A stretch of 64,000 bases of DNA from an uncultured Verrucomicrobiae bacterium (GCA_963809845.1 CAWELO010000014.1:157307-221306); one strand, 5' to 3'; positions 5,810 through 41,077 are shown, numbered from the stretch's first letter. Notes: generated by a model not told the origin, from the sequence alone. Program-made: numbers and translations.

Positions 5810-5905
5810 GGATGGGGCGTCGCTACGCGACGCGCGGTCTCGGGGGGACGGGGATCCATGGACTGAAGTCCATGGCTACCGTCGTTCGTCGCTACGCGAC
5901 AGGGA
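5810..5905. repeat. REP-like cluster of GC-rich hairpins
   Basis: GCGTCGC-TAC-GCGACGC (5817-5833). CCATGGAC-TGAA-GTCCATGG (5856-5875). A second CGTCGCTACGCGAC copy at 5887-5900. Confidence 0.6.
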
Positions 5906-6077: not shown

Positions 6078-7547
6078 ATGTTTATCGTAATGGTCACACC
6101 GGAGTGCGCGCCGGCGGCCAAAGTTGGCGGCCTGGCGGACGTCGTGCAGGGGTTGTCCAAGGAGCTTGGACTGCGCGGCCACGCCGTGGAGATCATCCTG
6201 CCCAAATACGACTGCATGCGCTACGACCGCATCTGGGGACTCACCAAGTGCTACAGCGATCTCTGGGTCCCATTTTACCAGCATTGGATCCATTGCGATG
6301 TTTATTCCGGCTGGATGGACGGCCTGAAATGCTTCTTCATCGAACCCCACCTGGACCGCAATTTTTTTAACCGGGGCGTCTTTTACGGGCATCAGGATGA
6401 CGGCGAGCGCTTCGCCTTTTTCTGCCGGGCCGCGCTCGAGTTCATGCTCAAGACGAACAAGCACCCGGATATTATACACTGCCACGACTGGCAGACCGCG
6501 CTGGTGCCGGTGTTGCTTTACGAGATGTATCAGCAACTGGGCATGCGGCATTCCAGGGTTTGCTTTACGCTGCACAATGTTGGGCATCAGGGGATCAGTG
6601 GGGAGTTTTTGCTGCGGGCGGTCGGATTGAACCCCGCTCACCTTTTGAATCCGGATCGGTTGCTCGATGATCGCCACCGCGGGGCGATCAATCTGATGAA
6701 AGGCGGCATTGTGTATTCGAATTTCGTGACCACCGTCTCACCGCGATACGCCGACGAGATACGGTTTACCCCCCTGGGGATGGGCTTGCAGCGGATCTTG
6801 AGGGTGCACCACCAGAAATTTGGCGGTGTCCTCAACGGCATCGACTACGGGGTGTGGAACCCGGAATTGGACCCGCACATCGCCCGGCGCTATAGTATCG
6901 GGTCGTTGGACGATAAATATGCGAACAAGGAGGCGTTGCGGCATCGTTTGTGGCTGCGTCAGGGGATGAAACCGGTGGTGTCATTCGTCGGCCGTTTAGA
7001 TCCCCAGAAGGGGGTCGATCTGATTTTGCACGCGGTGCCCTATTGCCTCGAGCACGGCTGCCAGTTCGTGCTGCTGGGGTCGAGCTTGCAGGGTGACATC
7101 AACACCGTGTTCTGGAATTTAAAGTGGCGGTTTAACGACCACCCGGACTGTCATCTGGAAATCGGCTATAACGAAGAACTGGCGCACTTGATCTACGCCG
7201 GCTCCGATCTGATCCTGGTGCCCAGCGGATACGAGCCCTGCGGCCTCACCCAGATTATCGCGCTCCGGTACGGCACCGTGCCCGTCGTGCGAAACACCGG
7301 CGGGCTCGCCGACACCGTGTTCGACGCCAATTACGCCCCGAAGCCCTACCAAGAGCGCAACGGTTATGTGTTCAACGATTACAACTGGGCGGGGCTGGAA
7401 TCGGCGCTGCACCGGGCCATCGGCATGTGGCACCATTACCCGCAACATTTTCGCGAGCTGATGGCCAACGGCATGCGTTGCGACTATTCCTGGAACTACC
7501 CGGGACAGAACTATCTCAACATCTACAACCACATCAAAGCTCGGTGA
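6078..7547 (+). CDS. glgA: Glycogen/starch synthase (GT5, ADP-glucose type)
   Basis: 489 aa. The N-terminus MFIVMVTPECAPAAKVGGLADVV carries the KxGGL motif. It also has HCHDWQTAL and a C-terminal PSGYEPCGLTQIIALRYGTVPVVRNTGGLADTV. Confidence 0.95.
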   Translation: MFIVMVTPECAPAAKVGGLADVVQGLSKELGLRGHAVEIILPKYDCMRYDRIWGLTKCYSDLWVPFYQHWIHCDVYSGWMDGLKCFFIEPHLDRNFFNRGVFYGHQDDGERFAFFCRAALEFMLKTNKHPDIIHCHDWQTALVPVLLYEMYQQLGMRHSRVCFTLHNVGHQGISGEFLLRAVGLNPAHLLNPDRLLDDRHRGAINLMKGGIVYSNFVTTVSPRYADEIRFTPLGMGLQRILRVHHQKFGGVLNGIDYGVWNPELDPHIARRYSIGSLDDKYANKEALRHRLWLRQGMKPVVSFVGRLDPQKGVDLILHAVPYCLEHGCQFVLLGSSLQGDINTVFWNLKWRFNDHPDCHLEIGYNEELAHLIYAGSDLILVPSGYEPCGLTQIIALRYGTVPVVRNTGGLADTVFDANYAPKPYQERNGYVFNDYNWAGLESALHRAIGMWHHYPQHFRELMANGMRCDYSWNYPGQNYLNIYNHIKAR

Positions 7548-10500
7548 CGACATCCAGCCAGACGGTAACGGCGCAAACGGGCCTGAAGGTCGAGGCGCTG
7601 ATTTCCCGGCGAGACACCGGCCTCGAGGTTACCCTCAAGGCGCCGGCCGTGCCTCGCCTGCTTCTGCATTGGGGCTTGCGGCGGTCTGGTGCGGAGGCCT
7701 GGACGATACCGCCCCAGCCCGGCTGGCCTCCCGGGACCGTGGCCGCCGGCCCAGGTGCGTTGCAGACCCCGTTTGCCAAGATGGATGGCGAGGCCAGGCT
7801 CGTGATTCCGCTCAGCCCCGCTGACGATTACGCCGCGCTTGAGTTTGTCCTGTTTCTGCCGGACGAAGGACGCTGGGACAATAACAGCGGGCGCAATTAC
7901 CAAATTCCCCTCGGGGAGACGCCGGCCCCGGGCGCGAAACCGCTCGGAGTCCTGCGGGCGCAGGCGGGTTCGGAGGAGTCATTGCTGGACCGAGTCTTCG
8001 AGCTGGCGGGCGGAGGCCAGTTGGCGGTGGGTGTGGCCAAGGCCGGCGACCAATACCGGCTGCGCTTCGTTTGCGACCGCGCGCGACCACTCCTGCTCCA
8101 CTGGGGCGTGGCCCAGCGTTCGCCGCATGAGTGGCTGCTGCCGCCGGAAACCTCGCGTGGCAAGGCGGCAACCGTTTTTCATGACCAATCCGCGGAAACT
8201 CCGTTTTCACCGCAGGACGGTTTGAACACGCTCCTGCTGGGGTTTTCGGAACCTGAAGCCCCACTCGGGATCCAGTTTGTGTTGCGGGAAGGGCCGGAGG
8301 GCCGCTGGATCAATTACCGGGGCGGGAATTTCTACCTGCCGGTCAAGGTGCGCCAGGCAGCTATGGCCCACCCGGGCGCCCGCGAGCATGCGGACATCGC
8401 GGAGGAGATTGTGCGGGCGGAGACCACCCACAATTCCTGGACCCTGATGCACCGGTTCAACCTGTGTTACGACCTGCTCGACCGGGTCCGCGGCAGCCCC
8501 GATGGCTTGGCTCTGATTTATGTCTATTTGCGCTTTTCCGCCATTCGCCAGCTCACCTGGCAGCGCAACTACAATACCAAACCGAGGGAGCTGGCCCACG
8601 CGCAGGAACGCCTGACGCAGCGGCTCGCCGAGCTTTACCGCCAGGAGCCCGCCGGCCGGCCCCTGGCTCGCTTAACCCTTGCCACGGTAGGCCGGGGCGG
8701 CGAGGGGCAGCGCATTCGCGACGAGATCCTCAATATCATGCACCGCCACCATGTCAAGGAGGTGAGCGGTCATTTCCTCGAAGAGTGGCACCAGAAACTC
8801 CATAACAACACGACCCCCGATGACGTGGTGATTTGCGAGGCCTACCTGGCTTTTCTGAAGAGCAATGGTGACCAGGATACGTTCTATCGCACGCTCGAAG
8901 CGGGCGGGGTTACCCGCCAGCGCCTGGAGAGCTTCGAACGCCCGATTCGCAGCCATCCTGACTTCGTCCCGCACCTGAAGGACGCCCTCATTAATGATTT
9001 CAAGAACTTTCTAAAAATCCTCAAAGCCAGCCATTCCGGAACAGATCTCGAGACCGCGATCCAAGCCGCCCGAAGCCAGCTGGATGGAGACTTGCAGGGT
9101 CGGCTGAACCAGGTCTGGGAGCAACGCAACGCCCCTCCGGAGCGCGCCCTGGATCTCGTCCGGCAGATCACCGAGGCGCGCCGCCGATTATCGAGTTCAT
9201 TCAACCGAACCGGCGGATTGCGCGAGTTGCTTTACCTCGATTTGGCTCTGGAACAACTGCTGCGCGCCATCATCGAGCGGAACATCCATTTGCCTTTCGG
9301 CGGTGACCCGTTGGTGGACTTCATCGGCTGCGTTCTGGAGAACCTGACCTTGTCCTACGAAGAACCCGAGCTGGCCGCGTGCTCGAGGCATTGGGAACGG
9401 CTTCGATCCCTGCCGCGTTTTGGCGACGCGTGGTCGCTGCATGCCAAATCCGTGCTCGACCGCGCCGCCCGGGCGCTCGGCGCGTGGATTGACCACTTTT
9501 ACCAACTCTTGCAACCCAAGGCGGAGCTGCTCGGCGGGGGTTTTAAAGCCGAGTCCTGGACGATCACGCTGTTCAGCGAAGAGGTGGTGCGCGGCAGCAG
9601 CCTGGGGTTTGCGCTTTCGGGTTTGTTGCGCCACTTGGATCCGGTCTTGCGCCGGGCGGCCCACATTGGGAATTGGCAGATCATCAGCCGCGGTCGTGGG
9701 GCGGGGCGGGTTGAGGTGGTCGAGGCCTTGAGCTCGGTCCAGGGCCGCCGGTTCGACGGGCCGAGGGTTATTGTCGCCGACCGTGTGACCGGGGAGGAGG
9801 AGATCCCGGACCAAGTGACCGCGGTGATCGCTCCGGATGTGGTTGATATGGTCTCCCACGTGGCGGTGCGCGCCCGCAATGCCGGCGTGCTCTTTGCGTC
9901 GTGCCACGATCCGGAGCTGTTCCAGCACCTGAAATCCCTGCAGGGCCGGCAAGTCCACCTCGAAGTGAGCGCTGCCGGTGATGTTCTGGCTGCCGAGGGC
10001 ATGGGAGAAACCGCCACGCAACCTCCGGCACACGAGCCTCAACGGCTGAGTCTTCCCCAGCGATCCTTCACCCGCTACGCCATTCCGTTCTCCGATTTTA
10101 CTGAACACCTGGTCGGTGGCAAAGCGCTGCACCAGGCTGAACTGCGAAAGCGGTTGCCGGACTGGATTCACCAGCCGGCCTCCGCCGCGCTGCCCTTTGG
10201 CGTGTTCGAGCGCGTGTTGAGCTTTGAGTCGAACCGCAGCGTCGCGAAACGCTATCTCGAGCTGGCCCGGCAGACCGCCTCGACGGGCACGGAACCGCTG
10301 GCGGAGCTCAGGCAAGCCATCCTTTCACTCCAAGCCCCCGCTGAGTTGATAGAGGCCCTGCGCGCGGCGATGGCAGCGTCCGGGCTCGCCTGGCCTGACG
10401 ATTGGGAGACGGCCTGGACGCGGATCAAACAGGTTTGGGCTTCCAAGTGGAATGACCGCGCGTTTCTCAGCCGCCAGCGTATCGGTTTGCCCCACGACTC

Positions 10501-11032
10501 GCTCTTTATGTCGGTTCTCGTCCAGCAGGTCGTGCCGGCTGAATACGCTTTCGTGATCCATACCGTGAACCCCTCCAATGGGAATCGTGGTGAACTCTTC
10601 GCCGAAGTGGTGCTGGGTCTGGGTGAAACGCTGGTCGGCAATTACCCCGGTCGAGCGCTTGCGTTCGTGTGGAACAAGGAAACCCTGCAACCGCGCCTGC
10701 TCTCGTTTCCGAGCAAGAGCGTGGGTCTGTATGGTGAGGGCCTGATTTTTCGGTCGGATTCCAACGGCGAGGATCTGGCCGGCTACGCGGGGGCGGGCCT
10801 GTATGACAGCGTTTTGCTCAAAGAACCGCGGCGTGTTGAGCTGGATTATTCGAACGAGCGGCTGGTCTGGGATGAGTCCTTTCGCCAAAACCTGTTTGCC
10901 AGCATCGCCCGCATCGGCCAGGAGTTGGAGCGCGCCACCGGGTCACCCCAGGACGTCGAAGGCGCCCTCACCGGCAGTGACTATTACGTCGTGCAAACTC
11001 GACCGCAGGTGGGTCTCGATGCGCATGAATGA
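7544..11032 (+). CDS. Alpha-glucan,water dikinase (GWD)-like enzyme with two CBM45-like N-terminal repeats
   Basis: Start taken at GTG 7544, overlapping the glgA TGA as GTGA. No ATG lies downstream in frame near the glgA stop. Two N-terminal repeats contain LLLHWG (7658-7675 and 8090-8107) and RWDNNSGRNYQIPL / RWINYRGGNFYLPV. The phosphohistidine motif is DMVSHVAVRARNAGVLFASC (His codon 9857-9859). The C-terminus reads WASKWNDRAFLSRQ...YAFVIHTVNPSNG...GLGETLVGNYPGRALAF...FRSDSNGEDLAGYAGAGLYDSV...SPQDVEG...YVVQTRPQ, which closely matches my recollection of plant GWD1 (potato R1). Confidence 0.85.
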   Translation: MTTSSQTVTAQTGLKVEALISRRDTGLEVTLKAPAVPRLLLHWGLRRSGAEAWTIPPQPGWPPGTVAAGPGALQTPFAKMDGEARLVIPLSPADDYAALEFVLFLPDEGRWDNNSGRNYQIPLGETPAPGAKPLGVLRAQAGSEESLLDRVFELAGGGQLAVGVAKAGDQYRLRFVCDRARPLLLHWGVAQRSPHEWLLPPETSRGKAATVFHDQSAETPFSPQDGLNTLLLGFSEPEAPLGIQFVLREGPEGRWINYRGGNFYLPVKVRQAAMAHPGAREHADIAEEIVRAETTHNSWTLMHRFNLCYDLLDRVRGSPDGLALIYVYLRFSAIRQLTWQRNYNTKPRELAHAQERLTQRLAELYRQEPAGRPLARLTLATVGRGGEGQRIRDEILNIMHRHHVKEVSGHFLEEWHQKLHNNTTPDDVVICEAYLAFLKSNGDQDTFYRTLEAGGVTRQRLESFERPIRSHPDFVPHLKDALINDFKNFLKILKASHSGTDLETAIQAARSQLDGDLQGRLNQVWEQRNAPPERALDLVRQITEARRRLSSSFNRTGGLRELLYLDLALEQLLRAIIERNIHLPFGGDPLVDFIGCVLENLTLSYEEPELAACSRHWERLRSLPRFGDAWSLHAKSVLDRAARALGAWIDHFYQLLQPKAELLGGGFKAESWTITLFSEEVVRGSSLGFALSGLLRHLDPVLRRAAHIGNWQIISRGRGAGRVEVVEALSSVQGRRFDGPRVIVADRVTGEEEIPDQVTAVIAPDVVDMVSHVAVRARNAGVLFASCHDPELFQHLKSLQGRQVHLEVSAAGDVLAAEGMGETATQPPAHEPQRLSLPQRSFTRYAIPFSDFTEHLVGGKALHQAELRKRLPDWIHQPASAALPFGVFERVLSFESNRSVAKRYLELARQTASTGTEPLAELRQAILSLQAPAELIEALRAAMAASGLAWPDDWETAWTRIKQVWASKWNDRAFLSRQRIGLPHDSLFMSVLVQQVVPAEYAFVIHTVNPSNGNRGELFAEVVLGLGETLVGNYPGRALAFVWNKETLQPRLLSFPSKSVGLYGEGLIFRSDSNGEDLAGYAGAGLYDSVLLKEPRRVELDYSNERLVWDESFRQNLFASIARIGQELERATGSPQDVEGALTGSDYYVVQTRPQVGLDAHE

Positions 11033-11129: not shown

Positions 11130-14100
11130 ATGCTCTACATCGGCAACCAGACCTCCTGCTGGACGCCCGCGCCTGCGGAGCCGTTTGATTATGCCTTGGC
11201 GCAGGGGTTCGACGCCTTCGAATGGTTTCCGGACAAGAAGCCCGAGGGCGGATGGGATGACGCCGATCTCGATGGCCCGACTCGGACACTGATCCGGGAA
11301 CGTGCTCGCGCCCTGGGGGTGCGCCTGTCGGTTCATGCCCGGTGGCAAGCCAGCCCATTTTCGTCTGAGGGGTATGCGCTCCTGTGGAACGATCTGGAAC
11401 TAGCGCGAGACCTCGGGGCCGCCCTGTTGAATATCCACTTGTCGCACGAACAAGGCGTTGAAGCGTTCATCCATGCCCTTCGACCGTTGATCGAAAGAAC
11501 GGCTCAAACAGGTCTGCAGCTTGCCATCGAGAACACGCCGCTCCATTCACCTGAAGACTTCAACGAATTCTTCGGCCGGCTCAAGCAGGCCATGCCGATC
11601 AACGCCGCCCACGTGGGGATGTGCTTTGACCTCGGACATGCCAATTTGTGCGCCGCCACGCGCAACGATTACCTGAAGTTCTACGATCGACTTGCCTCGC
11701 AGGTGCCGGTTATCCATCTCCATTTCCACGAAAACTGGGGCGATTCGGATTCACACCTGCCACTCTTTACCGGTCCGGCCGCGCGGGACGACGCCGGAAT
11801 CCGCGGCTTGCTGGACCGGCTCCGGCGGCGAACGTTCGAGGGATCGGTCATTCTCGAACAATGGCCCACTCCCCCGTCGCTTCTGGACCAGGCGCGAGAT
11901 CGCCTGCTGCAGTTGTGGAGTGTCGAGGTGAAGACGGGAGCGCCCGTCGAGCCTGTGGTCGCTTCGGCTTCGGTCCCAGAAAAATCCGTCGCCCCCAAGC
12001 CGAGGGAGGAAGCGGCGGCTCATCCCGGCGACCCTCCGCTCGAGGAGGGGAGGGACCAAGGCCGAGGATCAGCGGCTACCGCCACGGCCGAATCTGGCCG
12101 GGCGCCGGGGGCCGCCGCCACGTCCGACGAGTTTATCGGCCGGCTGACCACTGGAAACCAGCGCGCTCGTAGCTGGCGTGAGAAGCTGGATTTGGTGCTC
12201 CACCTTTTGACCGATGGAACGCATCCGATTGCCGCGGAGGGCTTGATCGATCTTGCCATTTACCTGCGATTCCTCGGGACCGGCGAGATCCCCTGCGTGG
12301 AAGACGGGCGGCACTTCCGTCCGGCGAGTCACGCCCGGATTTCCGCTCAAATCCAGGAGGGTCTGGGGCGCGTGACGGGCAATGGAAATGAATTCATCGT
12401 GCGCCGGATTTGGCCCTGGCTGCCTTCCGCCGCGCCCGCCTTTCAGCGCCCGGAGCCTCTGACCCGGATTCGGGACATCGCGCACCGGAACGACATCGAT
12501 CCAGATCTGAAGCGAGAGCTCAAAACGACGCTTCAGAACAAGCTGCACCGCTGTGCCGGGCCGGAGGACCTGGCCACCTCCTCGGCTATTCTGCGGCGCA
12601 TTACCGCTCCGGGCGCCGCGTATTCGCCGGGCTTCGTCGAACAATTCAAGATCTTCCACGAGGAGCTCAAGGAGTTCTTTAACGCGCAATCGCTGGATCA
12701 ACGCCTCGAAGAACTTAAGCCGTCGGCCTCTCCGAGCCAGAGGGAACGGATCGAAGGGTTCCTGCGTGGACGACACGGCAAAACGGTCCCGGAGCAGTTG
12801 GCGGCCCTGCGGCTGCTGACCACGTTGCGTGGGGCACTGCTTCCTGCCGGCAAGCCGCCCGCCGCGGCCCCAACCCAGCCTCATATCCTGGCCGATGTGG
12901 CCCTCGAAGGTTTTGCGTTTGTACTGCTCAGCCAGATCATCAACGGCTCTGAATCCCTGGTATCGGAACAAGGCCGGAAATCTCAGATCGAGGCGCTCAG
13001 CCTGGCCTTGGACAACCTGGTGTTCAGTGGTATCGAGGTGTCCGAATCCCAGGCCCTGGCCCACGAACTTCGCGAATTCACATCCTCGAAGGTTGCACCA
13101 CTCGAGGGCGCGGTCGCGCGGCGTGCGGCCGCGGTCAGAGGCCCGTTCCTCCCTCCCGGCAGCCCATCTGCCCGCGCTCGATCCCCGCGATGATTTGCTC
13201 CGATTCAAAGCCAGCTTGTTGCGCGCTCGCCGCCTGGCGGACAGCTTCAGTGAACGAATCCTGGCGTTGTTTGGGGGCCGGGCGGAACAGCTTGGCCGGG
13301 CTTTGGGGGTGGCCGATCATGCGATTCGGGTTTTCTGCGAATCCGAACTTCGTGGACACCTCGTTTTTCAGATTTCGAAGCTGGTTTCGAGTTTGCTGCG
13401 TCAGGTTCGAACCGAGCTTCGCGCCTCACCTTGGGATGTGCTGGTGGCCGGGCGCGCGCTCGGGCGGCTTACCACCGTCGATACTTTGGATCAACTCCAA
13501 CCGGTGCCCGGCGAATCGATCATCGCGCTGCTCCAGCAGGCGGCGGGGGACGAGGAAATGCCGAAGAACCTGACCGCGGTGCTGCTGGCGCACGAGCTCC
13601 GCACCTTTCGCACTTGGGCGTCCGCGCCCGTCAAGCCGGCGTGGTGTTTGCCACCTGCGAGGAGCCGCGGGAATGGGACCGTCTGCGCGAGCTCGCAGGC
13701 CAGACCATTTCCGTCAACGCCCTTCCCGATGCGGTGACCTGGGAGATCGCCATCGCTCCCAAACCGCCCCTTGCCGAAGCGCCGCGCCGCCGGCCTCGAA
13801 TCCCTTCCATTCGCCTGAATCCCGAGGCCGCCTGGTTCCCGCTCGAACGGGCAACCCCCGAGACGACCGGCGGCAAGGCCAATGCCGCCCGCCGGTTGGC
13901 CGAACTCGCGCGCACGTCGCCGGGTTTCCACACGCCCCGCTCGCTGGTCGTCCCCTTCGGTGTCCTGGAGCAAACCTTGAGCACCGTCCCGGGAGTGGCG
14001 GCGGAATATCGAGCTTTGAAGGAAGGAATCAACGGGCTCCCGCTCCGAGGCGATCCCCGCCCGAGCCCAAAAGCTGCGCGATTGCCTGGAAAAGCTGGCC

Positions 14101-14802
14101 GTGCCACCGGCGATCGGTTCTGAGATCACCCATCAGTTTTCTTCCGAGACCGCGCTGATCGTTCGCTCGAGCGCCAATTGCGAGGATCTCGAAGGTTTTG
14201 CGGGCGCCGGCCTCTACGAATCGGTCCTCAACGTGCCGGCTTCGGAGGTGGGCCCAGCGATCCGGGCGGTGTGGGCTTCGCTCTGGACCGATCGCGCAAC
14301 GCTCAGCCGCCGCGAGGCGGGCATCCCTCACGAGCAGGCCCATATGGCGGTGCTGATCCAGGAATTGTTGGATCCCGATTTGTCCTTTGTGCTGCACACG
14401 GTCAATCCGCTGACCTCGAATGCGCGGGAGCTGTATGCTGAAATTGTGGTGGGCTTGGGCGAGACGCTTGCCTCCGCGGCCACCCGCGGCAATCCCTATC
14501 GGTTGGTAAGTCACAAGGACTCCGGCGCGGTAACCACCTTGGCCTTCGCCGACTTCAGCCAGGCATTGCACCCCAAGGCCGGAGGCGGCTTGCGCCGGGA
14601 AACCGTGGACTACGCGGCGATCGATCTCAGCCGTTGTTCGGAGGCTCGGCAGCGGCTGGGCGCGCAGTTAGCTTCAGTTGGGGCCGCCGTCGAGCGCGCC
14701 TTCGGCGGGCCGCAGGACATCGAAGGAGTCGTGGTCCAGGGTCGAGTTTATCTTGTCCAAACCCGCCCCCAGCAGGGATTATCGCGCCGAGAGCCAAAAT
14801 GA
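11130..14802 (+). pseudogene. Xylose-isomerase-fold TIM barrel fused to a phosphoglucan,water dikinase (PWD/GWD3)-like enzyme; reading frame broken three times (~13.10-13.18 kb, ~13598, ~14048)
   Basis: Frame 0 (11130-13193) holds the TIM barrel (LAIENTP, CFDLGHAN, IHLHFHENWGDSDSHLPL), a Pro/Ala linker and the GWD-type middle region (LIDLAIYLRFLGTGEI). The sequence continues in ORF 12829-13737 (DDLLRFKASLL...AVLLAHEL). It then continues in ORF 13431-14123 (PHLSHLGVRARQAGVVFATCEE; His codon 13611-13613). It ends in ORF 14101-14802 (IVRSSANCEDLEGFAGAGLYESV...VWASLWTDRATLSRR...SFVLHTVNPL...GLGETLAS...TLAFADFS...PQDIEGVVVQGRVYLVQTRPQ). The PHLSHLGVRARQ, SFVLHT and TLAF-NFS motifs match my recollection of plant PWD. 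Confidence 0.8.
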
Positions 14803-15914
14803 AAACCGTGCTTCCCACCGGGGTCAAAACGCTGGCCCTTTTTGAAAAGCGCTTCGAGGGCGACGACGCCCTGTTCGAGTTGGCCCGGCGGCGTTTCCTC
14901 AAAGCCGGCATGGGAGCGGAAATGCACGCCGGCACACCGGAGCAGTTGCAGTCGCTCTTGAAGTTCCGGCCGGGGCAAGAGGCCCCGCTGGTGGTCCATC
15001 TGCCGCGCGATTTCAATCTCATCGACGGTTCGAGCCCCGGGAGGATCCTGGAGCTGGCCACCCGGTTCGCCGGTCAAATCCATGGCCTGGTGATTCACGA
15101 TCACCCCACGATCGCCACGCGCCGTGCGGAATATGTCGCGGCTGCCTGGAAACTGGATGACCAGTTCGAGAAGATCGAGGGCTGCCCGATGCTGTTTGTG
15201 GAATACGCCGCCGGGGTCGAGCCGGGAGAGTTCGCCGGGTTCTTTGCCGAAATCCCCGACCTGGAGCACCTGAGCGCCTGCATCGATATCGGGCATGTGG
15301 GGATTCGCGCCGCGCAAGCGGACTACGCTCGAAAGCACGGGGGCGACGATATCTTCCTCTTGAAGGCTCAGGGCCCGAGGCTGCCACAGGTCATCGCGGA
15401 AGTGCAAGCTTCGGTGGCCGCAGGGGTGGCGGAGGTTTTGGAACTGATCCAGGCGCTCTCCACGCTCCGCAAGCCCTTCCACTTTCATTTGCACGACGGC
15501 CATCCGCTTTCGACGTTCAGTCCTTTCGGGGTTTCCGATCACTTGAGCTTCTTCAGCGAGATTCCGCTGAACTTCGAGCACGAGGGCCGCCGGACTGTGC
15601 CGGCCATGTTCGGGCCAGGGGGCCTGGCCAAGGTGGTCAGCCGGGTCCTCGGGTTCATGATCCCCGAGCGCGTTTCTTTTACCCTCGAAATTCATCCCAC
15701 CGGCGAACGCTTGCCCCCGGGGGCGGAGTCCTCCTTATTTGACCACTGGACCGACAAGACCAATGCGGAGCGCATGAACCACTGGATCGAGCTGCTGAGC
15801 CGTAATCGCGCACTGTTGCGCCAGACCATTGATTCAGCCCTCGCACTCAAAAACCCTCAACCGCTTATCCCGGCACCACCGGTCGAGATGGAGAGTGGAG
15901 CCTGCGACATTTGA
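14799..15914 (+). CDS. Xylose-isomerase-like TIM-barrel protein (AP endonuclease 2 / sugar-phosphate isomerase-epimerase family), paralogous to the N-terminus of the preceding gene
   Basis: Start at MKTVLPTGV, with an ATGA overlap on the upstream stop (14799-14802). Motifs are LVIHDHP, LFVEYAAG, ACIDIGHVG and FHFHLHDGHP...VSDHLSF. The equivalent fused-domain motifs are IENTP, FDLGHAN and HLHFHEN...DSHLPL. Confidence 0.75.
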   Translation: MKTVLPTGVKTLALFEKRFEGDDALFELARRRFLKAGMGAEMHAGTPEQLQSLLKFRPGQEAPLVVHLPRDFNLIDGSSPGRILELATRFAGQIHGLVIHDHPTIATRRAEYVAAAWKLDDQFEKIEGCPMLFVEYAAGVEPGEFAGFFAEIPDLEHLSACIDIGHVGIRAAQADYARKHGGDDIFLLKAQGPRLPQVIAEVQASVAAGVAEVLELIQALSTLRKPFHFHLHDGHPLSTFSPFGVSDHLSFFSEIPLNFEHEGRRTVPAMFGPGGLAKVVSRVLGFMIPERVSFTLEIHPTGERLPPGAESSLFDHWTDKTNAERMNHWIELLSRNRALLRQTIDSALALKNPQPLIPAPPVEMESGACDI

Positions 15915-15954: not shown

Positions 15955-17135
15955 ATGCGAACGATTTCTCACGCTCTCGTCCTGAATCTCCATCAACCCC
16001 TGGGCAATCTCGAAGCCCTGCTCGAGACCAAGGAATGGGAGGCTAAGGAAATCCTTTTTGCCATGGATCGCATCCCGCGTTCTCTTTGGGGCTATGAAGA
16101 TGTCGGGCGGGTGCACCTCGCTCTTTCGGGAACGCTATTGGAAACCCTCTCGCGCTCCGACTTCCAGGAACGCGTGTATGGGATCGTGAAATGCGGCGAT
16201 CTGCTGTGGCACCTGCAAAATGACCGCGCTCTGCAGGTGCTGGGCACCGGTTATTACCATCCCGTTTTGCCTCTGATACCCGCGGAGGACTGGCAGGCGC
16301 ATTTAGAGCGCTGGCAGGGCATCGCGCGGCACTTGTTTTGGCGCGCCCGCTTCCCCGGCTTCTGGCCGCCCGAGATGGGCTTTTGCATGGAGCTCATCCC
16401 GCTGCTCAAACGGTTGGGCTATGAATATGTGCTGGTGGACAGCCAGCATGTCGCACCCGTCACCCCCATGCGTTGGGAGGAAATCCGCTACCGTCCGCAT
16501 GTCGCCCGCCATGGCGGCGAGGAGATCATCGTCGTGGTCCGGGATCGTGAACTCTCCGACGCGCAAGAAGCGGGGATGGATACCGGCTGGTTCATGCACG
16601 AGGTGCGCGAGCGGACCCGGTTTTGCGACTTCCCCCCGCTGGTCACCACTTGCAGCGACGGCGACAACGGCGGCTGGTTCCGCAACCTCTCCGAAAAGGG
16701 CAACTTTTGGGGGGTATTCTATTCAGCCGTTGCTCGAACGGGTGCGGCGGGGTGAAACCGAAGTGCGTCCGGTTTTCATTGACGAATACCTTCGGGGCCC
16801 ACGGCGCGCATGGCGAGGTGCGCGTGCAGACCGGGGCTTGGAACACCGGCTGGCACAGTGGCTTCGGCTTCACTCAGTGGACGGGCACCCAGGTACAGAA
16901 GGACGCCCTGCGGCGGCTCGCCGAAACCAGCCGTGCCTTCCACGAGGTGGCGCAGGCCACCGGGGGAGCCGGAAGTGGAAGTCCGGACAGCCGCCGCCGG
17001 CTCGAAGAGGCCCATTGGCGCCTGCTCCGAGCCGAGACGAGCTGCAATTTCTTCTGGGGCGAGGCCTGGGTGCCGCGCTGCCACGCGGATCTCGATCAGG
17101 TCTGGGCCATCCTGAATGGCCTCAACGCGAGGTGA
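15955..17135 (+). pseudogene. Glycoside hydrolase family 57 protein, two +1 frameshifts (~16714 in a G6 run, ~16799 in a CCC run)
   Basis: MRTISHALVLNLHQPLGN (the HQP motif), GTGYYHPVLPLI, FWPPEMGF and TTCSDGDNGGWF. The protein then continues in the next frame as YSIQPLLERVRRGETEVRPVFIDEYLRG. The third frame follows with HGAHGEVRVQTGAWNTGWHSGFGFTQWTG...NFFWGEAW. Confidence 0.8.
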
Positions 17136-20603: not shown

Positions 20604-21723
20604 TTAGCCCTTCCGCATCAGGAACAGAAACTCTTTGTTCTTCTCGCGCGCATCATTGACCCACTCGTTGGTCCAGCGCATCTCCGCCATGACATTCCGC
20701 TGGTAATCGATCTCGATCACTTCGAGCAACTCGCCGACCGATGCAATCGCGGCGTTTAGTTCCTGAGCGGTAGCCCGCCCGCCGGAGCTGTAGGAGAGGA
20801 GGATGTGCTTTGCCCGGGTTTCCCGCAGGAGGCGCTCAATGGCTTCAACGACGACAAATCGCCCGGCGGGGCTGCGGCGAAAGTCCTCGAAAGGCGAATA
20901 GGCGACGCGGTCAGAGCTGTCTTCTCTGCGGTTGGCTTTGCCAAACACCCCCGGACGGTCGTTGAGGCAAATGGAAGTCCACAGATGGTAGTACGCGGCG
21001 TAGCGGACGCGCGAAGGCGGCATCTTCTCGTTGTTCGAGCCGTACGGCGGGTCAAAGTAGGCCAAATCCACGTCCACCGTCGGAACGAGGTCGAAGATGT
21101 CCCCTTGGTGAACACTATGCCGTCCCACGCTCTGGAAAAGCCGGGGGACTTTCAAATGGATTTTGCGGTACGAGCGATCCGACCAGGCGCCCAGGTAGGA
21201 GGCAAAGTGCCCGAGCGTGCTGTCCACCACATCCATCGCGAGGATCAGGCTGGTGAGCAAAACCGCCCGCTCAAGCGGGGCGAGGGGCAGGCGGTCAATC
21301 GCTTCGCGGATGGCGTCGAGTTTGCGGGTATTGTGGGTTTGCCAGGGCCGTTTGACCGCGCCGCCGCCGGCAGCCTCCGCGCCGTAATGCTCGGTAAACC
21401 AACCGTCTGTTCCGGGGAGGGCGTTGAGGTGATCCACGAGCGGCTGATAGTGCTCGGGCGGGTGCGGGTTTAGGAGGTAGCAGGTCCCGAAGATTTTTGA
21501 CCACATGGCTAGGTCGTTCGCGACGACGGAGATACCCCGATTGTGCCAGCGCCTGGGAGACGCGGGTGCTTCCCGAGAAGCCGTCGAGCACCGTTTTGGG
21601 ATTGACCCGGTGCACGAGCCGGAGGAGGTGCGGGAGCAGCTTGAGCTTCGAGCCAATGTATTTGACGCCTTCCGTTGGCGGCGCGCCAACGACGGGTATT
21701 CGCGGTTTCGTTGTGGCGTTCAT
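20604..21723 (-). pseudogene. D12-class N6-adenine DNA methyltransferase, one frameshift at ~21535 (GGGG run)
   Basis: The N-terminal frame gives MNATTKPRIPVVGAPPTEGVKYIGSKLKLLPHLLRLV...LDGFSGSTRVSQALAQSG. The protein continues in ORF 20604-21689 as ISVVANDLAMWS...DLAYFDPPYGSNN (DPPY motif IV)...ILLSYS. Confidence 0.75.
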
Positions 21724-22054
21724 TCGGTTGCGGACCGGCGGGCTCACGCCCTGGTCGCCAGCGAGGAGACAGCCTGCGTCCGAGCCGGGCGGCTTGCACT
21801 AAGAAAATTGGCGTGCTGCCGCCTGGCCGCCTGGCCCGAAGCGCCACGTTGTTCAACCACCTGGTGGCTGGGCGGAGGCGAGCCGCCCGCCGCCCGGGTT
21901 CGATCCAGGCGGAATCATCCACTCGATTAGGCGAAGTTCAATCTAACGTGGGCGGATTGAATCCTCGCGCGCGGCGGGATAAACTAAACTGAACAGGCGA
22001 GTGGGTCATGAAACATGGAACGGTCGCGCGATCCAAACTGGAAAGGGTAGGAAT

Positions 22055-22805: not shown

Positions 22806-23252
22806 CTACGCGGGCACCAGCGTGAACGCGGGCGTATGCCGGTGGTGCGACCAATGCGCCTCGGGGCGGTAGCTGCCCACCACGGACGGGCGCTCTCGGG
22901 CCAGGCGTTCGATTTCGACAATCTGCACGGTGGTGAGACCTTTGAAATAGTCATCCCACCAATTAAACCAGCGCCAGAAAAAGGGCGAGAACTGGCCGTA
23001 ATCCATCACGGGCAGGACAATGTCGAACCGTTCGGTGGCCGACACCGCTTCGTTGAAGTGGCCCAGCAGCGAGTTGGATTTGTCGAGAAAGGCCGCCCGG
23101 TCAATTTCGGCGTTCTTGAACGCGCGCTCCAACGCGCGCAGTTGATTGACGATGACCAGGCAATGAATGAAGACGGAGACTTCCGGGGCGCGCACCAGGA
23201 TCTCCTGGTCCCGCTCGATTCCCAAGCCTGATTTGACGGTCGTTTTAGGCAT
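22806..23252 (-). CDS. Hypothetical protein
   Basis: ORF with good coding look, starting at MPKTTVKSGLGIERDQEIL. I recognise no motif. Confidence 0.45.
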   Translation of the reverse strand: MPKTTVKSGLGIERDQEILVRAPEVSVFIHCLVIVNQLRALERAFKNAEIDRAAFLDKSNSLLGHFNEAVSATERFDIVLPVMDYGQFSPFFWRWFNWWDDYFKGLTTVQIVEIERLARERPSVVGSYRPEAHWSHHRHTPAFTLVPA

Positions 23253-23320
23253 CTTGCTGCGAGCTAGGTAATTCCTCGCAGAAGCCGGACCGGTTTGCCA
23301 TGCCAATGAGTACGGATGGA

Positions 23321-25072
23321 TCATCGTGCCAAAAACGGATACGCCGCGCTGTCGTGGGTCAGCTTGCTCCACAGCCGCTCGAGAACATCCCCACAGGGCG
23401 GCGGGGCGGCGCCCGCATAAGCCACCTGGGCGTAAAGGCGGCCAACTTGCCCAACTTCAGGATCGCAATCCGGAAACTGTTCACCAACCCGGCAGGCAAA
23501 CTCGAAGGGCGTCTGCTCGGGCTGCCGGCCACAGCCGCATCCCTCCGCCCAAGCCTCGAGGGCTTCAAAGGTGTAGATGATGAGGTCCCGAGCCGGCATC
23601 GCTGAAGCCTGCCCGGAGCTGAAAGGGTTGGAGAAGGCGGCGAACGGGCGGGGAGCGGACCGCCGGGGAACAGGCACGGACTGAACGGACGCGCTTGGCT
23701 TGGAAGCGAACAGGCCGTGCCAAAAATCCTGCAAAGCGCGCCAAAGCGTTTGGATGAGCACTGCCAGGTGATGCCGGTTCTTGATCAACAGGAAGAGCAG
23801 CAGCGCCAGCAAAACAGCGTAAGCAGCGGACTTGGGCCAATTCAGGGTGAGCCGGCTTGCCGGCGCGGGACTTGGGCGCGGCTGAACGGCCTGCCCGCCA
23901 GGACCCGAAACCCTGCCGCCACTCACACTTGGGTTTCCGCTCGGGTGGTTCTCCCCCCCTCCGGTCCGCCCGGCGGCGGGTTTTTCGCCGGCCGTATCGT
24001 CCCGGGATGTCGCCACCTGCCGTGCCCGGTCGTCGGGGGTGGCGCCTGGCTGTTCGCCGGCGGTTTCTGATTGGGGATTCGCCTTTTCCGCGAAGTAGGA
24101 ATTGGTGGACTCCCGCGTGGATCGAGAGCGTGGATCGCCGAACCGGTCCATCAGGGAGCCAAACGACCAGGTGGCATTGGGACGTGGCAACAGGATGCAG
24201 GTCACCAATATGGCCAGACCCAAGGTCGAGCCCAGGCTGATCCAAGCCGCCGAGACGGCTGGTGGCATGACCAGTTGGCGCTGCCGCAGGTAACGGCGCA
24301 GGCCCAGGAAGCTGGTCAGCAGCAGCAGGCCCAGGGCCGAGGCGAGGTAAACGACAACGAAAAGAAAGGCGCGCGCTCGCGCGGCCGGATCGGAGGAGGG
24401 GAGGAGACTCTGGCCAAGGCCAAAGATGGGGAGCGCCGCGAGTGAGAAATAGATCACCCACAGGCCGGGGGCGTGCGGTTCGGTGGCGGCTTTGGGTTTG
24501 GGGCGGTAGAGCAGCTTCCACCAAGGCGGCTTGGCGGACGCGGACCTGGCGTGGCCGTCCGGGTTTGTGGGAGCGGTGCCATCCGGGGTGTCCCCGGCCG
24601 GAACGGCTGAAGCGGCGCGGGGAATATCCAGTTTGGCCGCTTGCAGCAGCCCCTCACCCGAGGCGTCCGCTTCCTCATCGATGACCGTGCAGTCCCAGGT
24701 CAGTTTGTTCGTGGCCCACCAGATCAGACCGAGGATGCACCAGGCGCCGAGGTAGTTGTCGATGTATTGCGTGAGGACAAAGGCCGTGGCGGCAGCCAAC
24801 CCGAGGCCGTAAATGCCGGCGTGGTCGTAGCCCTTTTCGATGGCGATGCGCGACACCAGGACCATGGCCAGCACGAACCAGAAGAGCGTCCAGCGCAGTT
24901 TCGCCAGGTGCGACCCGGCATAGCCGATTTCGATGAGAAAGAACACGAACGTGCCGACCACCAGCATGATGAGGATCGGGCAGACCGCGATGGCCGCGTA
25001 ATCGGCCAGCGTTTTGGCCGGTCGGAAACGAGGCAACGGCTGCAGAAAACTCCTGGGTGCGGGCGGGCTCAT
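23321..25072 (-). CDS. Multi-pass membrane protein with a C-terminal DUF4129-like domain (third gene of the MoxR operon)
   Basis: The second Met gives an ATGA overlap with the DUF58 stop (25072-25069). It has several TM helices and a long Pro/Gly/Ala-rich linker. The C-terminus is LIIYTFEALEAWAEGCGCGRQPEQTPFEFACRVG...LYAQVAYAG. Confidence 0.7.
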   Translation of the reverse strand: MSPPAPRSFLQPLPRFRPAKTLADYAAIAVCPILIMLVVGTFVFFLIEIGYAGSHLAKLRWTLFWFVLAMVLVSRIAIEKGYDHAGIYGLGLAAATAFVLTQYIDNYLGAWCILGLIWWATNKLTWDCTVIDEEADASGEGLLQAAKLDIPRAASAVPAGDTPDGTAPTNPDGHARSASAKPPWWKLLYRPKPKAATEPHAPGLWVIYFSLAALPIFGLGQSLLPSSDPAARARAFLFVVVYLASALGLLLLTSFLGLRRYLRQRQLVMPPAVSAAWISLGSTLGLAILVTCILLPRPNATWSFGSLMDRFGDPRSRSTRESTNSYFAEKANPQSETAGEQPGATPDDRARQVATSRDDTAGEKPAAGRTGGGENHPSGNPSVSGGRVSGPGGQAVQPRPSPAPASRLTLNWPKSAAYAVLLALLLFLLIKNRHHLAVLIQTLWRALQDFWHGLFASKPSASVQSVPVPRRSAPRPFAAFSNPFSSGQASAMPARDLIIYTFEALEAWAEGCGCGRQPEQTPFEFACRVGEQFPDCDPEVGQVGRLYAQVAYAGAAPPPCGDVLERLWSKLTHDSAAYPFLAR

Positions 25073-34199: not shown

Positions 34200-34358
34200 A
34201 TAATGTAACTGCTTATAGTGGAAAACCTCTAGGACCCATCACCGGTTCTTCCCGGCCAGTCCGGTCTTCCTAATCCAACAGACGCGCAGCAGCGGATTTG
34301 GTTACAACCAACAATGGACGTGACATCAGGCGGCGGCCATGGGAGATTCTGGCGAATT

Positions 34359-41075: not shown

Positions 41076-41077
41076 AG

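What the first reader, a model, noticed from the sequence alone, without database searches (positions are those of the whole stretch)
11130..14802. Rosetta-stone fusion of a xylose-isomerase-fold TIM barrel to a PWD-like dikinase, with the frame broken four codons before the catalytic histidine
One uninterrupted frame (11130-13193) joins three parts. First is a complete TIM barrel with metal-ligand-type motifs (IENTP, DLGHAN, HLHFHEN..D.D.H). Then comes a Pro/Ala-rich linker. Then comes the GWD-type helical middle region.

The rest of the enzyme is recognisable in three further frames. It carries PHLSHLGVRARQ, SSANCEDLEGFAGAGLYES, SFVLHTVNPL and TLAFADFS, motifs I recall as diagnostic of plant PWD (GWD3).

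Plant PWD has an N-terminal CBM20, whereas here a catalytic-looking TIM barrel occupies that position.

The -1 shift at ~13598 (CC where CCC is required) sits immediately upstream of the His codon at 13611-13613. Whether the gene is functional therefore depends on a single base call.
Basis: partly seen in the sequence, partly recalled or inferred. Interest (0 to 1): 0.75.

Follow-up and report, generated by a model that had tools for sequence, protein, structure and literature searches.

The report
Metal TIM barrel fused to glucan dikinase
This is a real and widely conserved bacterial gene that joins an endonuclease-IV-like metal enzyme to a plant-type starch-phosphorylating kinase; its three reading-frame breaks in this window are most likely assembly errors, and the fusion hints at an undescribed bacterial enzyme that removes phosphate from glucans.

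Summary
**Observation: confirmed.** Bases 11130-14802 encode a PF01261 TIM barrel, a Pro/Ala linker, a GWD-type middle region, a GWD phosphohistidine domain and a PPDK_N nucleotide-binding domain.
- The reading frame breaks three times: inside 13080-13185, at 13599/13600 (CC where CCC is needed, four codons before His 13611-13613) and at about 14043.

**The fusion is not unique.**
- All 119 best database relatives are intact proteins of 1064-1295 aa with the same three Pfam domains. JGI names them "phosphoglucan, water dikinase".
- In 11 of 21 related loci the TIM barrel is a separate gene. In 8 of those it sits directly after a GWD1-like dikinase, so the Rosetta-stone logic holds.

**The frame breaks are probably assembly indels (about 0.65).**
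- The neighbouring GH57 gene has two breaks. A D12 methyltransferase and a GlcNAc-2-epimerase have one each.
- A recent pseudogene (about 0.3) cannot be excluded without reads.

**New here.**
- All nine endonuclease-IV metal ligands align with invariant residues of the TIM barrel.
- Its nearest sequence relatives are MJ1311, the Endo IV family and the phosphodiesterase CbiR.
- The next gene (14799-15914) is a distant paralogue.
- The window encodes two dikinases and two such barrels; GWD1-only loci have one dikinase and one barrel where the DNA allows a count. I infer, untested, that the barrels are metal-dependent glucan phosphoesterases.

The parts
6078..7547 (+). glgA-type glycogen/starch synthase, first gene of the cluster. 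Its stop overlaps the GTG start of the next gene (GTGA at 7544-7547).
   Evidence: PF08323 E = 1e-68 plus PF00534. The GTGA overlap is seen. Synteny with L001, L002 and L005-L008.
7544..11032 (+). Intact GWD1-like alpha-glucan, water dikinase (1162 aa). It has two CBM45-like Ig_N_CWD1 repeats, a pHis domain (VSHVAVRARN) and PPDK_N.
   Evidence: PF23166 E = 1e-43 (2 stretches), PF22973 E = 3.2e-34, PF01326. JGI names homologues 'alpha-glucan, water dikinase'.
11130..11927 (+). N-terminal TIM barrel of the fusion (residues 1-266). Invariant H69, H103, E134, D167, H170, H196, D207, H209 and E243 align with the nine Endo IV metal ligands. H198, H200, E201 and D205 are also invariant.
   Evidence: PF01261 E = 6.9e-23. 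AF2 model pLDDT 92.6. Foldseek. Profile against PDB. Alignment with E. coli Nfo. Invariant columns. CbiR hit at 9.4e-10.
11928..12134 (+). Pro/Ala-rich linker of variable length and sequence between the barrel and the dikinase.
   Evidence: No consensus across these columns in the family alignment. Composition read from the translation.
12135..13079 (+). GWD/PWD-type helical middle region, in the same frame as the barrel.
   Evidence: Nearly invariant blocks (RIRDIAHRNDI..LQNKLHRCAGPEDL, FVEQFxxFHxELKEFFNA). Aligns with the GWD1-like paralogue at 23-31% identity.
13080..13185 (+). Variable loop of 106 nt (3n+1) that holds frame break 1. The shift is +1: one base too many or two too few.
   Evidence: Three-frame translation. 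Homologues have 8 to about 60 residues here.
13186..13599 (+). Segment read in frame 1: end of the middle region and first half of the phosphohistidine domain.
   Evidence: PF22973 positions 2-56. tblastn segments from about 10 intact homologues end at 13599.
13597..13604 (+). Frame break 2 (-1). The window reads CTCCGCAC where CTCCCGCAC (Leu-Pro-His) is required.
13611..13613 (+). Codon of the presumed catalytic (phospho-accepting) histidine, in LSHLGVRARQ.
   Evidence: Nearly invariant P-H-L-S-H-L-x-V-R-A-R-Q in 31 homologues. Lies within PF22973. The assignment as phospho-acceptor rests on homology to the GWD/PPDK family (established knowledge).
13599..14042 (+). Segment read in frame 3: second half of the pHis domain and start of the nucleotide-binding domain.
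   Evidence: PF22973 positions 59-108. tblastn.
14043..14046 (+). Frame break 3 (+1). GGG CTC CCG [C] TCC GAG gives G-L-P / S-E-A-I.
   Evidence: With one base removed, the length matches the homologues exactly.
14044..14802 (+). PPDK_N-type ATP-binding domain, read in frame 1. The stop at 14800-14802 overlaps the ATG of the next gene (ATGA).
   Evidence: PF01326 E = 1.1e-36. PDB PEP synthase / rifampicin phosphotransferase entries at E = 2.8e-26. ATGA overlap.
14799..15914 (+). Intact 371-aa protein with no Pfam family. It is a divergent TIM barrel and a remote paralogue of the fused barrel, and it keeps H43, H100, E135, D163 and H166.
   Evidence: hhalign of A2 against A3: probability 90.8%, E = 1.2e-6. 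AF2 pLDDT 91.0 with a (beta/alpha)8 pattern. Best Foldseek match is UlaE. 1664 homologues, all listed as 'hypothetical'. Found after the fusion in 9 of 10 fusion-type loci and detected in no GWD1-only locus; only about 6 of those 11 loci (L012, L014, L015, L017, L019, L020) extend far enough past the barrel to tell.
15955..17135 (+). GH57 glycoside hydrolase, also frame-broken. There is an extra T at about 16723 and an extra base at about 16793.
   Evidence: PF03065. Alignment to intact GH57 of L007, L012, L014 and L017 switches frame 1->2->3.

Best explanation
**What it is**
- The locus encodes one member of a large, conserved bacterial family, seen mainly in Verrucomicrobiota, with members in MAGs labelled Planctomycetota, Candidatus Acidoferrum and Myxococcales.
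- In this family an Endo-IV/MJ1311/CbiR-like metal TIM barrel is joined by a flexible Pro/Ala linker to a PWD-type glucan dikinase.
- The gene sits in a tightly packed cluster. Start and stop codons overlap at two junctions (GTGA and ATGA).
- Gene order: glgA, GWD1-like dikinase, TIM::PWD-like dikinase, a second divergent TIM barrel, GH57.

**The frame breaks**
- The three frame breaks in this window are most likely single-base consensus errors of the assembly, not biology.

**Dikinase half** (shown by homology)
- The C-terminal PPDK_N domain binds ATP.
- A phosphate is passed to the histidine of LSHLGVRARQ (codon 13611-13613) and from there to an alpha-glucan.

**TIM barrel half** (inferred)
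- The barrel is a metal-dependent phosphoesterase that takes the phosphate off the glucan or off released phospho-oligosaccharides.
- It would play the part that the unrelated DSP phosphatases SEX4 and LSF2 play in plants.
- The cluster would then run a phosphorylate / degrade / dephosphorylate cycle on a stored glucan.
For: **Family and fusion**
- Of 750 hits, all 119 listed relatives carry PF01261 + PF22973 + PF01326 in one protein of 1064-1295 aa.
- Among representatives clustered at 50% identity, about 40 fused (about 1100-1300 aa) and about 25 stand-alone (257-350 aa) barrels are listed.
- Repair of the three breaks restores full-length domain matches.

**Artefact reading**
- GH57 has two breaks, and a D12 methyltransferase and a GlcNAc-2-epimerase have one each.
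- Six of the seven breaks are of the +1 type, and three of the four that can be placed lie in or next to short homopolymer runs (13599/13600, ~16723, ~16793; the base at ~14043 does not).
- There are no in-frame stops in the repaired frames.
- Identity to homologues, relative to identity among the homologues themselves, is flat before and after the breaks (0.95-1.04).
- The stop in the last frame keeps the ATGA overlap with the next gene.
- A related MAG (L012, a 767-kb contig) has its GWD1 gene cut into at least four frame segments. Multi-hit breaks therefore recur in this kind of assembly.

**Phosphoesterase reading**
- The nine Endo IV metal ligands (H69, H109, E145, D179, H182, H216, D229, H231, E261) align with invariant H69, H103, E134, D167, H170, H196, D207, H209 and E243.
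- The family profile finds MJ1311 (2.6e-11) and then only Endo IV enzymes in PDB (1.4e-4 to 2e-3).
- The only NCBIfam hit is the phosphodiesterase CbiR (9.4e-10). CbiR is described in PMC7733943.
- In 8 of the 11 loci where the barrel is a separate gene, it starts 10-80 nt after the stop of a GWD1-like gene; in three (L014, L015, L019) no GWD1 gene lies in the fetched DNA.
- The gene after the fusion is a remote paralogue of the barrel.
- The window and three related loci encode two dikinases and two barrels; five further fusion loci show no separate GWD1 gene beside the fusion (L002, L006, L008 have glgA directly upstream of the fusion; L003 is cut within the fusion; L009 has neither GWD1 nor X371). 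GWD1-only loci have one dikinase and one barrel where the DNA extends far enough to tell.
- No DSP-type phosphatase domain is found in the fusion or in the following protein.
Against: **Against the artefact reading**
- No reads are available, so the artefact reading is indirect.
- The breaks are clustered. Five of seven lie within 13.1-16.8 kb. Under a uniform rate, the chance of three or more of seven falling in this 3.7-kb gene is about 0.006 (my binomial estimate).
- About 40 other genes of the window give complete domain matches.
- The assembly is therefore not uniformly poor, and local decay of the PWD and GH57 genes remains possible.
- The identity-ratio test has little power, because the nearest relative is only about 60% identical.

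**Against the phosphoesterase reading**
- Foldseek ranks ketose 3-epimerases and YcjR about as high as Endo IV.
- The CbiR score (38 bits) is far below the family cut-off (105 bits).
- MJ1311 has no known activity.
- Ligand geometry was judged from alignment, not from model coordinates.
- A phosphatase fused to a kinase for the same substrate could form a futile cycle.
Confidence: 0.62

Rival explanations
1. The breaks are real. The PWD-like gene and the GH57 gene are recently inactivated pseudogenes in this lineage, which is moving towards the simpler GWD1 + stand-alone barrel + GH57 arrangement seen in other genomes.
For: - Five of the seven breaks found in 64 kb fall in these two genes. Most other genes are intact.
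- Clusters without any PWD-like gene exist in 11 of 21 related loci, so loss of PWD is evolutionarily tolerated.
- The source genome was not among the GTDB species representatives found by the scan. No independent copy could be consulted.
Against: - GH57 is kept in both cluster types, so its decay is not expected.
- The gene between the two broken genes is intact (P0256).
- There are no nonsense codons, and all catalytic motifs are intact.
- Two unrelated genes elsewhere in the window are also broken.
- Multi-hit pseudogenes are unusual in a compact, otherwise intact genome.
- A related MAG, L012, shows the same kind of multi-break in GWD1.
Confidence: 0.3
2. The gene is real, but the TIM barrel is not a phosphoesterase. 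It could be a sugar or sugar-phosphate epimerase/isomerase acting on products of glucan breakdown. Or it could be a non-catalytic module that recognises glucan or glucan-bound phosphate and replaces the CBM20 of plant PWD.
For: - Foldseek matches to ketose 3-epimerases, YcjR (3-keto-glucoside 4-epimerase) and UlaE are as good as those to Endo IV.
- The E-D-H-E core shared by all PF01261 enzymes is present.
- The barrel occupies the position of CBM20. That AtGWD3 has an N-terminal CBM20 is stated in PMC6243121.
Against: - The five extra ligands that separate the trinuclear Endo IV site from the one-metal epimerases are all invariant.
- Sequence profiles reach Endo IV and CbiR but no epimerase.
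- A pure binding module would not need 13 invariant His/Asp/Glu residues.
- A pure binding module would not be expected as a separate gene next to GWD1, which has its own CBM45-like domains.
Confidence: 0.3
3. The frame changes are programmed: ribosomal frameshifting or transcriptional slippage produces the full-length protein.
For: None beyond the fact that conserved protein sequence continues in the shifted frames.
Against: - Three shifts in different directions would be needed.
- No slippery heptamer is present at 13597-13604 or at about 14043.
- All 119 listed homologues encode the protein in one frame.
Confidence: 0.01

Closest known systems
Plant phosphoglucan, water dikinase (PWD / GWD3, EC 2.7.9.5)
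   Same: - Same order of middle region, phosphohistidine domain and PPDK_N nucleotide-binding domain.
- The His motif is LSHLGVRARQ, where the GWD1-like neighbour has VSHVAVRARN.
- JGI's automatic annotation gives the PWD name to this family and the GWD name to the neighbour's family.
   Different: - There is no CBM20. An Endo-IV-like metal TIM barrel sits at the N-terminus.
- The host is a bacterium, and the gene lies in an operon.
- Substrate and position specificity are untested.
Plant alpha-glucan, water dikinase GWD1 (EC 2.7.9.4)
   Same: - PF22973 and PF01326 are shared.
- The window itself encodes a GWD1-like paralogue with two CBM45-like Ig_N_CWD1 repeats directly upstream.
   Different: - Only 23-31% identity to that paralogue.
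- The fusion has no Ig_N_CWD1 domains.
Endonuclease IV (Nfo) family, trinuclear-metal phosphodiesterase / 3'-phosphatase on DNA
   Same: - Same TIM-barrel fold (Foldseek E = 5e-9, TM 0.73 to 1qtw).
- All nine metal ligands align with invariant residues.
   Different: - Sequence similarity is weak (E = 1e-4 to 2e-3).
- The barrel has an extra invariant HxHxHEN..GDxDxH cluster.
- The genomic context is glucan metabolism, not DNA repair.
- The DNA-binding loops were not examined.
MJ1311 of Methanocaldococcus jannaschii (PDB 3wqo, 'D-tagatose 3-epimerase-like protein')
   Same: - Closest solved structure by sequence (profile E = 2.6e-11) and by fold (Foldseek E = 7.7e-13, TM 0.74).
- It shares DxGHAN and HxHxHxN.G.DxxH.
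- It is listed as a predicted Endo IV homologue in PMC2770678.
   Different: - Only about 19% identity.
- Stand-alone archaeal protein.
- I know of no demonstrated activity for it.
CbiR cobamide-remodelling phosphodiesterase (Akkermansia muciniphila; PMC7733943)
   Same: - It is the only NCBIfam model hit by the barrel (9.4e-10), and it is weakly hit by the next gene too (0.0086).
- It is a PF01261 member that hydrolyses a sugar-phosphate ester, from the same phylum.
   Different: - The score of 38 bits is far below the 105-bit cut-off, so the barrel is not a CbiR.
- There is no cobamide gene context.
SEX4 / LSF2 / laforin glucan phosphatases (dual-specificity phosphatase fold)
   Same: - They hold the proposed role: removal of C6 and C3 phosphate placed by GWD and PWD (roles as stated in PMC6243121).
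- The plant enzymes form two kinase/phosphatase pairs. The window likewise has two dikinases and two TIM barrels.
   Different: - Fold and chemistry are unrelated (Cys-based DSP against a metal TIM barrel).
- The analogy is inferred, not tested.

Membership tests
GWD/PWD glucan dikinases | C-terminal PPDK_N-type ATP-binding domain | tested here: met
   PF01326 at E = 1.1e-36 on the last frame piece. It matches 5-316 of 328 in one stretch after repair.
GWD/PWD glucan dikinases | GWD-type phosphohistidine domain with the conserved His | tested here: met
   PF22973 is split across break 2 (positions 2-56 and 59-108). It matches 2-107 of 115 after repair. PHLSHLGVRARQ is nearly invariant in 31 homologues.
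GWD/PWD glucan dikinases | One uninterrupted coding frame | tested here: not met
   There are three frame breaks in the window. All 119 listed homologues are intact.
PWD (GWD3) subtype | Closer to PWD than to GWD1 | tested here: inconclusive
   The evidence is indirect only. JGI names this family 'phosphoglucan, water dikinase' and the neighbour's family 'alpha-glucan, water dikinase'. No plant sequence was available for a tree or a direct alignment.
PWD (GWD3) subtype | N-terminal CBM20 starch-binding module | tested here: not met
   Pfam finds only PF01261, PF22973 and PF01326. The CBM20 of AtGWD3 is described in PMC6243121.
PWD (GWD3) subtype | Phosphorylates C3 of glucan already phosphorylated by GWD | not testable with these tools
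   This needs an enzyme assay.
Xylose-isomerase-like TIM barrel superfamily (PF01261) | Profile match above the gathering score, and a (beta/alpha)8 fold | tested here: met
   82.1 bits against a cut-off of 31.1. AF2 model pLDDT 92.6 with eight strand/helix units. 402 Foldseek matches at E <= 0.001, and every one of the 50 listed is a PF01261-type TIM barrel.
Endonuclease IV family | Nine ligands of the trinuclear metal site | tested here: met
   The alignment gives H69/H69, H109/H103, E145/E134, D179/D167, H182/H170, H216/H196, D229/D207, H231/H209 and E261/E243 (Nfo/barrel). All are invariant in 21 sequences. This was judged from sequence alignment, not from 3D geometry.
Endonuclease IV family | Family-level sequence similarity, and DNA-binding / AP-site recognition loops | tested here: inconclusive
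   Only weak profile hits were found (E = 1.4e-4 to 2e-3). No Endo IV NCBIfam model was hit. The loops were not examined. I do not file the barrel as an Endo IV.
CbiR phosphodiesterase (NF041277) | Score above the curated cut-off | tested here: not met
   38.4 bits against a cut-off of 105.
Ketose 3-epimerases / sugar isomerases of PF01261 | One-metal E-D-H-E site and family-level similarity | tested here: inconclusive
   The E134-D167-H196-E243 core is present, and the fold matches are good. No sequence-profile hit to any epimerase was found at E <= 10.
DSP-type glucan phosphatases (SEX4, LSF2, laforin) | Dual-specificity phosphatase domain | tested here: not met
   No such Pfam domain is found in the fusion or in the following gene. 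Only a functional analogy is proposed.

The most novel reading that the evidence does not exclude
**Claim**
- The fused TIM barrel and its divergent paralogue downstream are a new, metal-dependent class of glucan phosphatase, unrelated to the DSP enzymes of plants and animals.
- Verrucomicrobiota and other bacteria that carry the cluster then run a complete GWD/PWD-plus-phosphatase cycle of reversible glucan phosphorylation from one operon.
- That cycle has been regarded as a hallmark of starch-storing eukaryotes.

**Possible extensions**
- Each barrel could be matched to one dikinase, in the way SEX4 is matched to C6 and LSF2 to C3.
- The bacterial GWD/PWD pair could bear on where the plant enzymes came from.
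Probability: 0.35. Interest if true: 0.8.

Novelty: new variant of a known kind. Interest (0 to 1): 0.55.

Why it matters
**Background**
- Phosphorylation of storage glucan by GWD and PWD, followed by dephosphorylation, controls starch breakdown in plants.

**What this window and its relatives show**
- Both dikinase types are common in uncultured bacteria. Searches returned more than 2000 relatives of the GWD1-like protein and 750 of the fusion.
- The dikinase genes sit beside glycogen synthase and GH57 genes.
- The bacterial PWD type is fused to an Endo-IV-like metal barrel in all 119 listed relatives, and the barrel follows the GWD1 gene in 8 of the 11 loci where it is a separate gene.

**What becomes testable**
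- The barrel is a concrete candidate for the missing bacterial glucan phosphatase, and its chemistry differs from that of SEX4, LSF2 and laforin.
- Purified protein and phosphorylated glucan would be enough to test this.

**The frame breaks**
- The breaks themselves matter little. They mainly warn that this assembly carries local indel errors.

Tried and rejected
- **Source contig.** I looked for the source contig and its gene calls by exact protein look-up, using the 687-aa ORF and glgA. Neither is on record. The cluster look-up shows only that the source is a 359-kb NCBI/ENA contig, so the sequencing platform is unknown.
- **GC3 frame plot.** It was too noisy at 62% G+C to find frameshifts. 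A codon-usage scan gave candidates, which I then checked with Pfam.
  - Confirmed as split genes: 20607-21747 and 29913-31236.
  - Not split, but separate complete genes or uninformative: 22809-25093, 35096-36381, 58380-60193, 47899-51558, 42813-44071 and 52525-53862.
- **Relaxed selection after the breaks.** The ratio of identities is flat. I judge the test weak, because the nearest relative is only about 60% identical.
- **Literature.** Searches for bacterial GWD/PWD, for a TIM-barrel fusion and for MJ1311 found no description of this family. The library does not hold most subscription journals, so this is not proof of absence.
- **Sequence search of the following protein.** The 371-aa protein gave nothing against PDB, and its Foldseek matches are poor (TM about 0.4-0.5). 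Only the profile-profile comparison links it to the fused barrel.
- **A 5557-aa protein with MJ1311-like barrels (P0463).** It was too long for the Pfam tool, and I read it by eye only. I judged it not relevant.
- **Programmed frameshifting.** Considered and rejected.
- **Scan of JGI metagenomes for the repaired CCC allele.** Not run. The closest relative in the protein database, which includes those metagenomes, is about 60% identical, so an exact 30-40-nt match was not expected.

Full report
**1. What is in the sequence**

The window (62% G+C) carries a plus-strand gene cluster.

| Coordinates | Gene |
|---|---|
| 6078-7547 | glgA-type glucan synthase |
| 7544-11032 | intact GWD1-like dikinase (two Ig_N_CWD1/CBM45-like repeats, GWD1_pHisD, PPDK_N) |
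| 11130-14802 | the flagged gene |
| 14799-15914 | 371-aa protein without a Pfam family |
| 15955-17135 | GH57 hydrolase |

- glgA and the GWD1-like gene overlap as GTGA.
- The flagged gene and the 371-aa gene overlap as ATGA.

The flagged gene starts as one open frame of 687 aa (11130-13193).
- It holds PF01261 at residues 19-256 (E = 6.9e-23), a Pro/Ala-rich linker, and a region that aligns with the GWD1-like neighbour.
- The rest of the enzyme continues in alternating frames.

**2. The three breaks**

I aligned about ten intact homologues from related loci to the DNA. I also aligned a repaired protein with 27 database homologues.

| Break | Position | Type | Detail |
|---|---|---|---|
| 1 | within 13080-13185 | +1 | a loop of 106 nt (3n+1) whose length varies among homologues from 8 to about 60 residues, so the break cannot be placed more exactly |
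| 2 | 13599/13600 | -1 | the window reads CTCCGCAC where Leu-Pro-His needs CTCCCGCAC |
| 3 | about 14043 | +1 | GGG CTC CCG [C] TCC GAG; removing one base gives exactly the homologues' length |

- At break 2 the repaired HELPHLSHLGVRARQ matches every homologue.
- The presumed catalytic His is codon 13611-13613, four codons downstream.
- After repair the protein is 1223 aa.
- GWD1_pHisD (2-107 of 115) and PPDK_N (5-316 of 328) then each match in one stretch, as in the intact homologue P0002.

**3. The fusion is a large conserved family**

- The 119 listed relatives are 50-60% identical and 1064-1295 aa long. All carry PF01261, PF22973 and PF01326 in one protein.
- JGI names them "phosphoglucan, water dikinase".
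- Relatives of the upstream paralogue are named "alpha-glucan, water dikinase". An independent automatic annotation therefore separates the two genes of this window as PWD-type and GWD-type.
- Genome loci come mostly from MAGs labelled Verrucomicrobiota. Others are labelled Planctomycetota, Candidatus Acidoferrum, Myxococcales and Proteobacteria.
- No DNA relative is closer than about 79% identity.

**4. Two cluster types, and the Rosetta-stone logic**

Among the 21 related loci that hold the barrel:
- Ten loci have the fusion. Nine of them also have the 371-aa gene directly after it.
- Eleven loci have the barrel as a separate gene. None of these has a PWD-like part, and the 371-aa gene was detected in none; only about six of them extend far enough past the barrel to tell.
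- In eight of those eleven, the separate barrel gene starts 10-80 nt after the stop of a GWD1-like gene.
- In four of the eleven, the barrel is followed directly by GH57.

A search of 1.84 billion cluster representatives with the barrel alone gave a tight family. There were 523 hits at E <= 0.001 and 101 at E <= 1e-30. Among the full-length hits, about 40 are fused and about 25 stand-alone.

The barrel is therefore linked to glucan dikinases both by fusion and by conserved adjacency.

**5. What the barrel looks like**

- With a 32-sequence alignment, AlphaFold2 gives a confident (beta/alpha)8 barrel (pLDDT 92.6).
- The top Foldseek matches are MJ1311 (3wqo), the ASFV AP endonuclease, ketose 3-epimerases, YcjR, TTHB071 and Endo IV. 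Fold alone does not decide the chemistry.
- Sequence does more:
  - A profile of 21 fused and stand-alone barrels finds MJ1311 (2.6e-11). After that, the only other hits below E = 0.01 are Endo IV enzymes (3aam, 5zhz, 6khy, 1qtw; 1.4e-4 to 2e-3).
  - The only NCBIfam hit is the phosphodiesterase CbiR (9.4e-10, below its cut-off). CbiR is a PF01261 enzyme of Akkermansia that hydrolyses a phosphodiester (PMC7733943).
- All nine ligands of the Endo IV trinuclear site align with residues that are invariant in the family: H69, H103, E134, D167, H170, H196, D207, H209 and E243.
- H198, H200, E201 and D205 are invariant as well.
- That these nine residues are the E. coli Endo IV ligands is established knowledge (Hosfield et al. 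1999), recalled from memory. My recalled Nfo sequence carries the expected residue at each numbered position and aligned identically to the PDB entry.

**6. The next gene is a distant copy of the barrel**

- The 371-aa protein has 1664 relatives, all listed as "hypothetical" and without Pfam domains.
- Its model is a confident TIM barrel (pLDDT 91.0) with weak matches to UlaE.
- A profile-profile comparison links it to the fused barrel (probability 90.8%, E = 1.2e-6).
- That comparison aligns H43, H100, E135, D163 and H166 with H69, H103, E134, D167 and H170.
- The window and three related loci thus have two dikinases and two barrels. GWD1-only loci have one of each where the DNA allows a count.

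**7. Are the breaks real?**

Points in favour of assembly error:
- GH57 has two breaks: an extra T at about 16723 and an extra base at about 16793, next to GGGG.
- A D12 methyltransferase (about 21530) and a GlcNAc-2-epimerase (about 30725) have one break each.
- Six of the seven breaks are of the +1 type.
- The repaired frames hold no stop codons.
- Identity to homologues, relative to identity among the homologues themselves, is flat across the breaks (0.95-1.04).
- A related MAG with a 767-kb contig (L012) has its GWD1 gene in at least four frame segments.

Points against assembly error:
- The breaks cluster. Five lie in 3.7 kb, and about 40 other genes look complete.
- By my estimate, three or more of seven breaks falling in this gene has a probability of about 0.006 under a uniform rate.
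- The identity test is weak.
- No reads or close relatives are available.

My estimates are assembly error about 0.65, recent pseudogene about 0.3, and programmed shifts about 0.01.

**8. How it most likely works**

Shown by homology:
- ATP binds the PPDK_N domain.
- A phosphate is carried by the His of LSHLGVRARQ to a glucan.

Inferred from context:
- The substrate is the glucan made by the neighbouring synthase.
- The GWD1-like enzyme probably acts on it first.

Inferred from the ligand pattern, the nearest relatives and the gene-neighbourhood pattern:
- The barrel is a metal-dependent phosphoesterase that removes glucan-bound phosphate.
- This is the role of SEX4 and LSF2 in plants (PMC6243121), carried out with unrelated chemistry.

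I give this last step about 0.35-0.4. The main rivals are a sugar epimerase/isomerase or a phosphate-recognising targeting module.

**9. Novelty and score**

- The family is already in public data under an automatic name.
- I found no paper that describes it. The library is incomplete, so this is not proof of absence.
- It is a new variant of a known kind: a PWD-type dikinase whose starch-binding module is replaced by a catalytic-looking metal barrel.
- The frame-break story is probably an artefact and carries little interest.
- The barrel/dikinase pairing is a good, testable lead.
- Interest: 0.55.

Noticed in passing
window 38846-41135: Six tandem copies of a unit of about 376-383 bp, mostly 96-99% identical to the reference copy (the last copy 79%). 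They lie in a 2.6-kb stretch with no ORF of 150 aa or more. Each unit begins with a G-rich heptad run, (GAGGGCG)n.
   Followed up: partly
window 15955-17135: The GH57 gene next to the cluster is also frame-broken twice, at about 16723 and about 16793. It is intact in L007, L012, L014, L015 and L017.
   Followed up: yes
window 20607-21747 (-) and 29913-31236 (-): A D12-class adenine methyltransferase and a GlcNAc-2-epimerase-family gene are each split into two frames, with consecutive Pfam profile coordinates. The breaks lie at about 21530 and about 30725.
   Followed up: partly
window 14799-15914: The 371-aa protein belongs to a family with more than 1600 relatives, no Pfam domain and only 'hypothetical' names. 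It is a divergent metal-ligand-bearing TIM barrel that follows the TIM::PWD fusion in 9 of 10 fusion-type loci.
   Followed up: yes
window 5856-5901 (+), 57510-57555 (-), 60247-60292 (-); 57946-58138 (+): There are three Acido-Lenti-1 sRNA matches and one cobalamin riboswitch, all above the Rfam gathering scores.
   Followed up: no
L012:7985-11460: In a related MAG (a 767-kb contig), the GWD1-like gene is itself cut into at least four frame segments. This is a useful comparison for judging assembly indels in this clade.
   Followed up: partly
window 50044-50260: The ORF that holds a complete LarA (lactate racemase) gene has an upstream extension. The extension matches a fragment of Methyltransf_33 (profile 67-138 of 304) and may be a gene remnant.
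   Followed up: no
window 34314-34952 and 35096-35623: Two complete cyclophilin-type peptidyl-prolyl isomerase genes lie side by side.
   Followed up: no
protein P0463 (5557 aa): This giant multidomain protein contains at least two MJ1311-like TIM barrels with the same DVGHANL / HFHDNNG..DH motifs. Its architecture was not analysed because it is too long for the Pfam tool.
   Followed up: partly
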